Below are positions 1-3,000 of a stretch of DNA of 64,000 nt, piece by piece. How positions within the stretch are numbered: the first letter of the stretch is position 1; every line of letters starts with the position of its first letter. The position numbers were made by a program. This DNA comes from Mytilus edulis. Its lineage: Eukaryota. Location: NCBI RefSeq assembly GCF_963676685.1, contig NC_092345.1, positions 78,678,001-78,742,000 of the forward strand. Direction: 5' to 3'.

Positions 1-3000
1 ACGGACACTATGGTAGATCGGTCCACCGTCATGGACACTCTGGTATATTTGGTCACCGTCATGGACACTTTGGACATCGTCTAGGACGCGTTAGTCACCA
101 TCATGGAAGTTTCGGCCTATTTGGTCACCATCATGGACATCATCATCACCATCACGGACATGTTGGTCACCATCACGGACATTTTGGTCACCATTATGGA
201 CATTTTGGTCACCATCACGGACATTTTGGTCACCATCACGGACATTTCGGTCACCATCATGGCCATCATGGGTACCGTCATAAAGGAAAGTATTACGGAA
301 AAGCTAGGAAGTACTACAAAAAATATAAAAGGACAGGAAATAGTAAATACTACCGGAAATCCCGAAAATATCACAGTAAAGGTTACAAAAAATATTTGTA
401 TTAATTCACATTAAATGTATGAGAATTAGATTTTTTAATTATTCAAATCAATCTACTGTTCTTTATAAATAAGATGTGGTATGAGTACCAATGAAACAAC
501 TCTGCATCCAAGTCACAATGTGTAAAAAGTTATCAATTATAGGTCAAAGTACAGCCTTCAACACGAAGCCTTGGCTCACACTTAAAAACAAGCTATTAAG
601 GACCCCAAAGTGACATGCTTAAAACAATTCAAACAGGAAACCCAACGGTCTAATCCATAACAAAAACGAGAAACGATAAACACGTATGAACACGACCAAC
701 AAACAACAACCACTGAAAAACAGGCTCCTTGGAGGGAAATTTGGACGAACAAATGAAAAAAAGGGGTATAAAATGTTAGATAGGAGCAGGAACTTTGCCT
801 TGCAAATGGCCACCCTGTACCCCTTACAAACTTGTTGGAAGTAACTTGTTAGCACTAGAATCGTAATGCGTTTCTTTAGTACATAAATGTAGCTGTCTTT
901 GTTTTTTATATGCCCTTTCTCTTCTTTCTCATATCGTTCATTTTAAATCAATAATATTGCAGAACGAGGCATTGATCTATGTATCATTTGAAGAAAAAGA
1001 AAAAAAAAGAGTTGGTACTTTCCTTTTGATCTTTCATTAATGTACTTCGATCAAATGCAAATATGCTTCCATTTTCTTATTGTAGACCTGTATCGCAGTG
1101 TAGTTTGATTGAACTTAATATTTCCGACTTGCATGGGATTGATTAAAGTTAGAAAAACTATTTCTGCACCATAACAAGATAATTGCATTAAATCAAACAA
1201 GGATGTCTTAAGAGTTGAATGAATGAATTTATTTATTTGCAAAAAGCATTTACATGCTATGGCAATCAAAACATATATTACATATATGACACAATAATAA
1301 ACAGCAGAAAACAACACATCATACAAAGTGAAGTAAGAATTTGACATCTCATTTTCCATACTGCCTTAATATAATTACATAATTTTATAGTTGCTGTTTT
1401 ATTGACAGCTTTTAACAATTGATCCAGTTTATAAATATTTGGCCAAGAACAAAAGTATTTTGGTAAATAATGTGACCTTGCAGGTCTTTATACAGGACAA
1501 ACTAAAACAAAATGATATTCGTCTTCAACAACGTTCATATTACAACAAAGACACAATCGTAATTCTCTTGGCGTATTGGTATATCTACCAACTTTGATAT
1601 TTAATTGAAGTGTCCCACTACGTAGTTTCGTAAGTAATCGATCATCACAAAATAAATTTAAGTAATTTTCAAGACAAAAATCTGTCTTGATTCTTTTATA
1701 CATGCAAAGTTTTTCACAATCACATAAAGATGTGGACCACTCTTGAAAATATTGATCAGTAATACGTTTTTTAACAATATCAAAAACTACATTAGTTTAT
1801 AGTTACATCCTGTGAAATCCACAAAAAGTTCAGGCCAAGATTAGACAATAAATCTCGTACATAAGAATCCCAATTTGTTTTACCATTAATAACATCTTTA
1901 TACAGAAGCATGTAAACATCGTGAACAACACTTGTTTTTTTTTCAATAAAATATGAAACCAATATTTTAAAAGTATAGTTAACTTTTAAAGAATAGCACT
2001 AAGTAAAAACACGCAGAATCTTTACATGAAATGCTATATAGTTATATGAGATAGACATTCGGAAATTAGAAAACAGGAAAAGCTTAAAAATAAAGAAAAA
2101 ACAAATTATACGAATGAGCATTAACATTTTAAGCCACGATGCTACACAATATTTTTACTTCACGGGATATTTTAGAATTGATTGTATTGCTGCTGTAAAT
2201 TCAAATCCCATTTAAGAGAGCAAATACCTTCAGATATTGATTTATGTTTTATAATGTTGGGCTGTGTCTCTTTAGAAATACACATATTTCATTCCTTTTA
2301 ACTATTTATTTAAGTATTCATAATAATATGAAAACACGTAAAAGATTTTTTTAAAAACCCATTAAGAAAGAAAAAGTTAAATGTATACATCCGCTAATGT
2401 TTTTTCCGATTTGATCAGTTTTCCTTCATTCCTACATTATTGACACTGACGTATACTTTGTTGGATATTTCCTTTCATTAATATGTAGAGTTCGGGTGGG
2501 ATTGTACTTCATGTTCATATGATGAAGACATAATCTTTCAAGCAGTTTAACTGAGGTCTGGAGCTGACATGTCAGTAGCTGCTAGTAGTCCTTTGTTAAT
2601 TTATTTATCATTGTCATTTTGTTTAGTTTCTTTCGTTACCTATTCTGACATCGGACTCGGACTTCTTTTGAACTGAAATTTACTGTGCGTATTGTTGTGT
2701 GTTTGTTTTTTCTATATTGGCTGGAGGTTAATGGGTTGAGGGTTGAAATCTCAAAAACATGTTTAACCCCGCCGCATTTTTTAGCCTGTCGCAAGTCAGA
2801 GGGGCCTCTGTCCTTTGTTAATCTTGTGTGATTTTTAGTATACATTTTTGTTTAGGGTCCAACTGAAGCACCCCTCCGGTAGCATTGAAGACCCGGGTGT
2901 TCTCTGCTCTTTGGTCGGGTTGTTGTCTCTTTGACACACACCCCATTTCTATTCTCAGTTTTATTCAGTTTGAAACAACATCAACTATTCAGCAGTTTAC

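What the first reader, a model, noticed from the sequence alone, without database searches (positions are those of the whole stretch)
3..404. Hidden byssal adhesive protein: His/Gly/Phe repeat block fused to an mfp-5-like Lys/Tyr tail
Seen: the frame from nt 3, absent from the ORF track, encodes GHHHGHF heptads (21-nt repeat GGTCACCATCACGGACATTTT) followed by a K/Y-rich tail. Known: mfp-5 is a Dopa/Lys surface primer, His-rich blocks in byssal proteins bind transition metals in a pH-dependent way, and mfp-9 has a His/Gly + Lys/Tyr block layout. By hand, about 28 of 40 tail residues match the mfp-5 C-terminus as recalled. Inference: a diblock protein coupling interfacial adhesion with His-metal cohesion, possibly an unreported Phe-containing paralog.
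Basis: partly seen in the sequence, partly recalled or inferred. Interest (0 to 1): 0.8.

Follow-up and report, generated by a model that had tools for sequence, protein, structure and literature searches.

The report
Mussel glue-like gene end: His repeats plus mfp-5 tail
The left edge of the window holds the last 133 codons of a gene whose end closely resembles the sticky lysine/tyrosine tail of mussel foot protein 5, preceded by a long run of histidine-glycine-phenylalanine repeats; it is probably a variant mussel glue protein, but its start, its expression and its novelty could not be checked.

Summary
The frame from nt 3 is stop-free from the window's left edge to TAA at 402-404. It encodes 133 residues: 89 of His/Gly/Phe repeats, then a 44-residue Lys/Tyr tail. 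A 21-nt array at 120-266 has 7 copies at 86% matches.

The frame was "hidden" only because the ORF lister omits ORFs that run off an end.

The mfp-5 likeness holds. Window residues 94-130 match, without gaps, 28 of 37 residues of the Mcfp5 segment 53-89 printed in PMC7018726. About 8.6 matches are expected from composition (P ~3e-11). A 17-residue Mfp-5 peptide in PMC7403305 matches 14 of 17.

The mfp-9 likeness is compositional only. Features reported for Mcfp9 (125-128 aa, GGHH repeats, Asp/Trp/Pro, 8 Tyr) are not met.

Protein, structure and family searches returned no true relative. They did not return mfp-5 either, so they say nothing about novelty.

Start codon, signal peptide and expression are untestable here. 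Best reading: the terminal part of an mfp-5-lineage foot-protein gene with an expanded His-rich block. Its function is inferred.

The parts
3..404 (+). Terminal part of a coding sequence (133 codons plus stop). It is open to the window's left edge, so the start codon, any signal peptide and any upstream exon lie outside the window.
   Evidence: the only frame open over 1-401; not listed because it runs off the end.
3..119 (+). Degenerate His/Gly/Arg/Phe repeats (residues 1-39), with periods of 30 and 21 nt. They begin at the window edge, so the array probably continues upstream.
   Evidence: arrays 3-73 period 30, 85% matches; 48-107 period 21, 69% matches.
120..266 (+). Regular 21-nt tandem array of 7 heptads in the G-H-H-H-G-H-F register (residues 40-88).
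   Evidence: 7.0 copies, 86% matches, score 217. Codons that differ from the commonest unit: 4 synonymous and 4 non-synonymous in this frame, against 3/8 and 0/10 in the other two + frames.
270..401 (+). Lys/Tyr-rich tail (residues 90-133; Lys 13, Tyr 12, Gly 5, Arg 5 of 44).
282..392 (+). Block homologous to the positive Lys/Tyr cluster of mussel foot protein 5 (window residues 94-130 against Mcfp5 53-89).
   Evidence: 28 of 37 identical and ungapped, counted by eye and the string printed in PMC7018726. Expected 8.6; binomial P 2.6e-11. 14 of 17 against the Mfp-5 peptide in PMC7403305.
402..404 (+). Stop codon TAA. It falls 3 residues after the homologous block; Mcfp5 (96 aa) continues 7 residues after its block.
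410..415 (+). ATTAAA, a possible variant polyadenylation signal 6 nt after the stop. This is a weak lead only; the first canonical AATAAA on the + strand is at 1296.
   Evidence: Read.

Best explanation
Window 3-404 is the 3' end of a protein-coding gene of a mussel-type (Mytilus-like) genome. [quoted passage not shown]

Shown:
- The last 37-44 residues are a homolog of the Lys/Tyr cluster of mfp-5.
- The at least 89 residues before it are a tandemly amplified His/Gly/Phe array.

Inferred:
- The protein is secreted by the foot into the byssal plaque.
- The tail's Tyr residues are hydroxylated to Dopa and act with Lys as a surface primer, as in mfp-5.
- The His block acts as a pH switch. Its calculated charge is about +45 at pH 5 (acidic secretion) and about +6 at pH 8.1 (sea water). 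On secretion the block would lose its self-repulsion, condense with Phe as the sticky residue, and could coordinate Zn/Cu/Fe. Interfacial adhesion would thus be tied to cohesion within one chain.
- The His block most likely arose by 21-nt tandem duplication of the short His/Gly/Tyr stretch that mfp-5 already carries just upstream of its Lys/Tyr cluster.
For: - Frame and repeats.
- Tail homology: 28 of 37 ungapped against the Mcfp5 53-89 segment printed in PMC7018726, with 8.6 expected and P 2.6e-11; 14 of 17 against the Mfp-5 17-mer in PMC7403305.
- Position of the block: the stop codon falls within a few residues of where Mcfp5 ends.
- Expansion idea: Mcfp5 residues 45-52 read H G Y H G H G Y from printed site lists. 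The window has H G H H G Y R H at the same place, 4 of 8 identical, which is not significant on its own.
- Frame choice: codon changes among the 7 units are 4 synonymous to 4 non-synonymous in this frame, against 3:8 and 0:10 in the other two.
- Local base composition: G+C is 46-49% over 1-300, against 31.6% for the window.
- Charge switch: His block +44.7 at pH 5 and +6.0 at pH 8.1; tail +19.9 and +17.9. His pKa was assumed to be 6.5.
- Context: ordinary animal genes surround it, namely a GPCR, sulfatase exons, CAP-domain exons and a RING/B-box/NHL protein.
- Field context: His-rich plaque proteins with pH- and Zn-dependent assembly are documented for mefp-12 (PMC13022425: abstract, passages and section 6).
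Against: - No start codon, signal peptide, promoter or upstream exon can be seen, because the ORF is cut by the window edge.
- No expression or peptide evidence was available.
- No database relative was found. One search against 1.84 billion representative proteins gave 4 hits with E<=0.001, all unrelated low-complexity repeats. Three searches of the 5.8-billion-sequence protein set gave 0, 0 and 1 hit; the 1 was a ZIP-transporter-family protein at E 0.65.
- Pfam, PDB sequences and the ESM Atlas gave nothing.
- Being stop-free is weak evidence here. Three of six frames are open from about 120 to 400. In the whole window, 5 of the 7 ORFs of 133 aa or more have no Pfam family.
- The synonymous excess rests on only 8 changed codons.
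- The organism was not identified by any tool.
- A canonical AATAAA is absent for about 890 nt after the stop.
Confidence: 0.6

Rival explanations
1. It is a pseudogene or orphan fragment. On this reading it is a duplicated 3' piece of an mfp-5-like gene whose His/Gly stretch has turned into an unstable minisatellite, and which is no longer transcribed or translated.
For: The start of the gene is unseen. No annotated protein like it came back from any search. There is no canonical AATAAA near the stop. A 21-nt array can stay open in several frames without selection.
Against: There are 133 codons without a stop or frame break, in the same frame as the mfp-5-like tail. The stop codon sits near the mfp-5 position. 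The degenerate upstream repeats (3-119) keep the frame and the His/Gly character although they have diverged to 69-85% matches. That divergence suggests age under constraint.
Confidence: 0.2
2. The real product is in another frame: the listed ORF 103-414 (+, Val/Thr/Ile/Asp-rich) or the minus-strand ORF 117-374. The His/Gly and Lys/Tyr reading would then be a by-product of the repeat.
For: Both ORFs exist and are stop-free over the array and the tail.
Against: Neither has a Pfam family. Frame + from nt 1 is closed by a stop at 82-84, while the repeat continues to the window edge. Codon changes are 3 synonymous to 8 non-synonymous in one other + frame and 0 to 10 in the other. Only the frame from nt 3 gives the 28 of 37 match to mfp-5.
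Confidence: 0.03
3. It is a real secreted His-rich protein, but not a byssal one. Examples would be a His/Gly-rich antimicrobial or metal-handling peptide, or a shell-matrix protein. On this reading it merely shares an ancestral Lys/Tyr module with mfp-5.
For: Tissue of expression is unknown. His/Gly-rich and Lys-rich secreted peptides with other roles exist in invertebrates (general knowledge, no call).
Against: 76% identity over 37 residues with a plaque-interface protein points to a recent common origin, and probably to shared regulation. No hit to any antimicrobial or matrix family was found.
Confidence: 0.1
4. It is the ortholog or an allele of the already described mfp-9 (Mcfp-9p v1/v2 of Mytilus californianus) in another species, and so is already known.
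For: Passages of PMC7018726 say Gly and His are the most abundant residues of Mcfp9. They give pI 9.74 and a signal peptide.
Against: The same passages give 125-128 residues in all, GGHH repeats, residues D27, D29, W76 and P79, several Val/Leu/Ile, His at 108 and 111, and an extinction coefficient of 17420, which I read as 1 Trp + 8 Tyr. The window's last 133 residues have no GG, Asp, Trp or Pro, 14 Tyr, and a 44-residue tail with 12 Tyr. The Mcfp9 sequences themselves (AST36127.1, AST36129.1) could not be fetched, so no alignment was made.
Confidence: 0.07

Closest known systems
[quoted passage not shown]
   Same: The C-terminal Lys/Tyr cluster: 28 of 37 identical without gaps. It includes the runs KGKYYGK, KYKRTG, RKYH and KGYKK. 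A His/Gly-containing stretch lies directly upstream of it, and the stop codon is close by.
   Different: The part seen here is already 133 residues. His is 32% and Tyr 10.5% overall, against 20.8% Tyr reported for Mcfp5. The Tyr/Gly/Ser/Asp-containing front half of Mcfp5 is replaced by at least 89 residues of His/Gly/Phe repeats with only 2 Tyr.
Mussel foot protein 9 (Mcfp-9p v1/v2, AST36127.1 and AST36129.1)
   Same: Gly and His are the most abundant residues and the protein is basic.
   Different: The GGHH motif is absent here. There is no Asp, Trp or Pro. Tyr count is 14 against 8. The fragment alone is longer than the whole Mcfp9.
Other His-rich byssal proteins: mfp-4, mefp-12, and the His-rich flanks of preCols (the last recalled, no call)
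   Same: High His content. These proteins have a proposed or shown role of His in pH-dependent metal binding and plaque or thread cohesion. For mefp-12 see PMC13022425; for Mcfp4, His is 23%.
   Different: Mcfp4 is 770-810 aa with the periodic element H.HVH.H.VL. mefp-12 has a His-rich helical coiled coil and globular domains and only 9.1 mol% His. Here the unit is a Gly-containing heptad ending in Phe, and the single-sequence AlphaFold model is below pLDDT 50 over most of it.
His/Gly/aromatic repeat proteins of squid beak and polychaete jaws (recalled from general knowledge; no tool result)
   Same: Short Gly-His-aromatic repeats whose charge is lost near pH 6.5-7. In those systems this drives condensation and metal or covalent curing. 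It is the mechanistic analogy for the His block.
   Different: The organisms are unrelated and no homology is claimed. Those proteins have no Lys/Dopa adhesion tail.

Membership tests
mfp-5 | C-terminal Lys/Tyr-rich positive cluster alignable with known mfp-5 | tested here: met
   28 of 37 identical and ungapped against the printed Mcfp5 53-89 segment; P 2.6e-11 given both compositions. 14 of 17 against the printed Mfp-5 17-mer. Comparison was by eye, because the printed strings could not be handed to an alignment tool.
mfp-5 | Small protein (Mcfp5 96 aa with signal peptide) with about 20-30 mol% Tyr/Dopa throughout | tested here: not met
   At least 133 residues and Tyr 14 of 133 (10.5%). Tyr is 12 of 44 in the tail but 2 of 89 in the His block. 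Mcfp5 size and 20.8% Tyr come.
mfp-5 | N-terminal signal peptide / secretion | not testable with these tools
   The ORF runs off the left edge of the window.
mfp-5 | Expression in the foot plaque (phenol) gland, Dopa modification, location at the plaque-substrate interface | not testable with these tools
   No expression or proteome data were on hand.
mfp-9 (Mcfp9) | Gly and His as the most abundant residues | tested here: met
   His 43 and Gly 28 of 133; the Mcfp9 statement is.
mfp-9 (Mcfp9) | GGHH repeats; 125-128 aa; presence of Asp, Trp, Pro; 8 Tyr | tested here: not met
   No GG, Asp, Trp or Pro, and 14 Tyr, in a fragment of 133 aa.
mfp-9 (Mcfp9) | Collinear sequence similarity to AST36127.1 / AST36129.1 | not tested
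   No tool fetches these accessions. No search returned them.
His-rich metal-binding byssal proteins (mfp-4 / mefp-12 type) | Family-specific repeat or fold (mfp-4 H.HVH.H.VL element; mefp-12 His-rich coiled coil and globular domains) | tested here: not met
   The unit here is GHHHGHF. The AlphaFold single-sequence model has pLDDT 40-53 over residues 1-90.
His-rich metal-binding byssal proteins (mfp-4 / mefp-12 type) | Binding of transition metals by His, dependent on pH | not testable with these tools
   Only the calculated charge switch is available.

The most novel reading that the evidence does not exclude
This is an undescribed diblock plaque protein. In it the mfp-5 Lys/Dopa surface-priming module is covalently joined to a His-Gly-Phe heptad module that is triggered by pH and metal and then condenses. 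One chain would then link the Dopa-centred interfacial chemistry with the His/Zn-centred assembly recently proposed for the plaque scaffold. The His module would have been born by 21-nt tandem expansion inside an mfp-5 paralog.
Probability: 0.25. Interest if true: 0.7.

Novelty: new variant of a known kind. Interest (0 to 1): 0.5.

Why it matters
Mussel adhesion research has centred on Dopa-rich primers such as mfp-3 and mfp-5. A 2026 study (PMC13022425; abstract, passages and section 6 read) argues that His-rich proteins drive pH- and Zn-dependent plaque assembly.

A natural protein carrying both modules in one chain would be a ready-made test case for how adhesion and cohesion are coupled. 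It would also be a compact template for bio-inspired wet adhesives.

It would also show how a new material property can arise by simple tandem expansion within a small adhesive gene.

If it is only an unexpressed fragment, or an already catalogued foot protein, it is ordinary.

Tried and rejected
**Searches with the 133-aa peptide**
- Pfam: 0 families at E<=10.
- PDB sequences: 3 chance hits at E 1.6-3.7.
- Search of the 5.8-billion-sequence protein set, lengths 73-233 aa: 0 of 1711 candidates at E<=0.001.
- Same set, tail only (residues 88-133): 0 of 13 candidates at E<=10.
- Same set, lengths 234-2000 aa: 1 of 2510 candidates, E 0.65, a ZIP-transporter-family protein.
- HMMER search against the 1.84 billion representative proteins: 4 hits at E<=0.001 and 0 at 1e-10. 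On reading, all 4 were unrelated repeat proteins.
- ESM Atlas, whole peptide and tail: no usable hit.

These searches did not return mfp-5, although the tail plainly matches it. Their silence is therefore not evidence of novelty.

**Steps that could not be made**
- The cluster look-up for two neighbour proteins, meant to place the organism, could not be made because the database was switched off.

**Literature**
- 'mfp-9' and its variants: only PMC7018726 and a name list in PMC6680511 were relevant.
- 16 short motifs were searched inside words. The His-block motifs hit no biological paper; only the tail motifs hit mfp-5 papers.
- 'mfp-5-like' terms and a His-rich/plaque search gave nothing relevant.
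- DeMartini et al. 2017 is not held.

The statement that no such protein is printed rests. It covers main texts only, because supplements are closed and may hold such sequences.

**Other checks**
- A second His-rich or Lys/Tyr-rich coding stretch elsewhere in the window: none in six frames.
- tRNA: none. Rfam: none.
- Single-sequence AlphaFold: mean pLDDT 59.2. The His block is at about 40-53. The tail is a helix at pLDDT about 92, which I treat as unreliable without an alignment. No fold search was made with this model.
- No alignment tool was given the paper-printed mfp-5 strings. The identity counts are by eye.
Neighbouring exons were scanned ORF by ORF.
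Full report
**1. What is in the sequence**

The window has no N and is 31.6% G+C. Its first 404 bases are 38-49% G+C in 200-nt windows, well above the flanks.

The frame that starts at nt 3 has no stop until TAA at 402-404. It is the only one of six frames open over all of 1-401. The + frame from nt 1 is closed at 82-84.

The 133 residues fall into two blocks.
- Residues 1-89: His 41, Gly 23, Phe 8, Arg 5, and only 2 Tyr.
- Residues 90-133: Lys 13, Tyr 12, Gly 5, Arg 5.

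Cys, Asp, Glu, Met, Pro, Gln and Trp are absent.

Tandem Repeats Finder reports a 21-nt array at 120-266 (7.0 copies, 86% matches). It also reports weaker arrays at 3-73 (period 30) and 48-107 (period 21). The repeat therefore starts at the window edge and probably continues upstream.

All copies lie at 51-248, and none were found in 100 shuffles.

No other His-rich or Lys/Tyr-rich stop-free stretch exists in any frame of the 64 kb.

The frame was missing from the ORF track because the lister omits ORFs that run off an end. It shows ORF 103-414 in another frame instead.

**2. Which frame**

Being open is weak evidence here. From about nt 120 to 400, three of six frames are stop-free. In the whole window, 5 of the 7 ORFs of 133 aa or more have no Pfam family.

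Three things pick the nt-3 frame.
- It alone stays open through the older, degenerate repeats to the edge.
- Among the 7 regular units, codons that differ from the commonest unit are 4 synonymous to 4 non-synonymous in this frame. The other two + frames give 3:8 and 0:10. These are small numbers.
- It alone gives a match to a known protein (section 3).

The alternative ORFs 103-414 (+) and 117-374 (-) have no Pfam family.

**3. The tail is an mfp-5 tail**

No tool could fetch mfp-5, and no search returned it. Two papers print parts of it.

PMC7018726 (passages read) gives the positive cluster of Mcfp5 (ABE01084.1, 96 aa), residues 53-89. Laid against window residues 94-130 without any gap, 28 of 37 positions are identical. 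Both strings are very rich in Lys and Tyr, so I computed the chance expectation from the two compositions. This gives 0.234 per position, or 8.6 matches, and a binomial P(>=28) of 2.6e-11.

PMC7403305 (passage read) prints a 17-residue Mfp-5 segment. Window residues 93-109 match 14 of 17 (P 4.7e-7).

These counts were made by eye from tool outputs. The printed strings were not given to an alignment tool.

The window protein stops 3 residues after the block, and Mcfp5 stops 7 residues after it.

From the site lists printed in the same paper, Mcfp5 residues 45-52 read H G Y H G H G Y. The window has H G H H G Y R H at the same place. That is 4 of 8 identical, which is not significant alone in His/Gly-rich sequence. 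It does show that mfp-5 already has a short His/Gly element exactly where the window's His block ends.

**4. The mfp-9 comparison**

The primary paper (DeMartini et al. 2017) is not held. I saw only its reference entry and a list of names.

PMC7018726 (passages) reports the following for Mcfp9 v1/v2 (AST36127.1, AST36129.1):
- 128 and 125 residues, with signal peptides of about 19-22;
- pI 9.74;
- Gly and His as the most abundant residues;
- GGHH repeated two or four times;
- residues such as D27, D29, W76 and P79, several Val/Leu/Ile, H108 and H111;
- an extinction coefficient of 17420, which equals 1 Trp + 8 Tyr (my arithmetic).

The window fragment alone is 133 residues. It has no GG, Asp, Trp or Pro. 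It has 14 Tyr, 12 of them in the last 44 residues.

It is therefore not an Mcfp9 allele or close ortholog. A distant relation cannot be excluded without the sequences.

**5. Searches for relatives**

Results for the 133-aa peptide:
- Pfam: 0 families.
- PDB sequences: 3 chance hits at E 1.6-3.7.
- Search of the 5.8-billion-sequence protein set, lengths 73-233 aa: 0 of 1711 candidates at E<=0.001.
- Same set, tail alone: 0 of 13 candidates at E<=10.
- Same set, lengths 234-2000 aa: 1 of 2510 candidates at E 0.65, with a ZIP-transporter Pfam domain.
- HMMER search against the 1.84 billion representative proteins: 4 hits at E<=0.001 and 0 at 1e-10, all unrelated low-complexity repeats on inspection.
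- ESM Atlas: no usable hit for the whole peptide or the tail.

mfp-5 was not returned despite 76% identity over 37 residues. These methods are therefore blind to this kind of short, biased sequence, or the libraries lack mussel foot proteins. The negative results do not show novelty.

Literature motif searches inside words found no paper main text that prints FGHHHG, GHHHGHF, HGHHGY or related strings in a protein. Only the tail motifs hit, in mfp-5 papers. Supplements are closed and may hold such sequences.

**6. Structure**

A single-sequence AlphaFold2 model has mean pLDDT 59.2. The His block scores 40-53 per 10-residue block, consistent with disorder. The tail is drawn as a helix with pLDDT about 92 over residues 100-120.

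Without an alignment I give the helix little weight, and I made no fold search with the model.

**7. Mechanism (inferred)**

With His pKa taken as 6.5, the His block carries about +45 at pH 5 and about +6 at pH 8.1. The tail stays near +18 to +20.

If the protein is secreted from the acidic foot gland into sea water, as known for mfps (general knowledge), the His block would be soluble and self-repelling before secretion. It would be nearly neutral afterwards. In that state it would be free to condense, with Phe as the hydrophobic sticker, and to coordinate metals.

The Lys/Tyr(Dopa) tail would bind the surface as mfp-5 does.

pH- and Zn-dependent assembly by a His-rich plaque protein is documented for mefp-12 (PMC13022425). 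That protein differs in sequence and fold.

The analogy to squid-beak and worm-jaw Gly/His/aromatic repeat proteins is from memory, not from a call.

What is shown: the frame, the repeats, the tail homology and the charge arithmetic. What is inferred: secretion, Dopa, metal binding, condensation and byssal location.

**8. Context**

The rest of the window holds ordinary animal genes:
- an intronless rhodopsin-type GPCR;
- sulfatase exons;
- CAP-domain exons;
- a RING/B-box/NHL single-exon ORF;
- a 47-nt satellite.

These exons were scanned one ORF at a time.

Nothing suggests a human contig: 31.6% G+C and an mfp-5-like gene.

No tool named the organism. The look-up that might have done so could not be made. 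'Mussel' rests on the mfp-5 match.

**9. Verdict**

- The reading as the end of an mfp-5-lineage foot-protein gene with an expanded His/Gly/Phe block is the best supported (confidence about 0.6 for the full statement).
- The narrower claim of a coding exon in the nt-3 frame with an mfp-5-homologous tail rates about 0.85.
- The mfp-9 link is not supported beyond composition.
- Function and novelty remain open.
- An unexpressed fragment is the main rival (about 0.2).

Noticed in passing
window 5155-6123 (+): Single-exon ORF for a rhodopsin-family 7TM receptor (Pfam 7tm_1, E 1.4e-30, covering the whole 260-position profile). The first ATG is at 5155 within the listed ORF 5131-6123.
   Followed up: partly
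window 14939-24117 (-): Exons of a sulfatase gene on the minus strand. ORF 23872-24117 matches Pfam Sulfatase positions 1-63 (E 1.2e-14) and ORF 21445-21675 matches positions 59-125 (E 6.1e-11). ORF 14939-15166 gives a weak Sulfatase_C match below the family cut-off. The exons were scanned separately and were not joined.
   Followed up: partly
window 19566-20141: A 47-nt tandem repeat of 12.3 copies at 93% matches (score 970). It lies between the sulfatase exons, so it is probably intronic.
   Followed up: no
window 30286-30555 (-) and 47983-48279 (-): Two ORFs match the start of the CAP (cysteine-rich secretory protein) domain. The first has E 1e-8 and is above the family cut-off. The second has E 0.0012 and is just below it. 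They may be two paralogous secreted-protein genes.
   Followed up: no
window 52779-54896 (-): A 705-aa single ORF with a RING finger, a B-box and weak NHL/beta-propeller matches: a TRIM-like E3 ligase without introns.
   Followed up: partly
window 35372-35938 (-), 42879-43298 (-), 59010-59420 (+), 15362-15778 (-), 16314-16730 (-): ORFs of 136-188 aa with no Pfam family. The two 138-aa ORFs have equal length but are unrelated (BLASTP E 1.0).
   Followed up: partly
window 282-392 (+), protein residues about 100-120: Single-sequence AlphaFold2 draws the Lys/Tyr tail as a helix with pLDDT about 92, although mfp-5-type sequences are usually regarded as disordered. This may be a model bias towards Lys-rich segments.
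   Followed up: no
searches with window 3-401 (+): HMMER-based searches of billions of proteins did not return mfp-5, although 28 of 37 tail residues are identical to a printed mfp-5 segment. Short, compositionally biased adhesive proteins are effectively invisible to these tools.
   Followed up: partly
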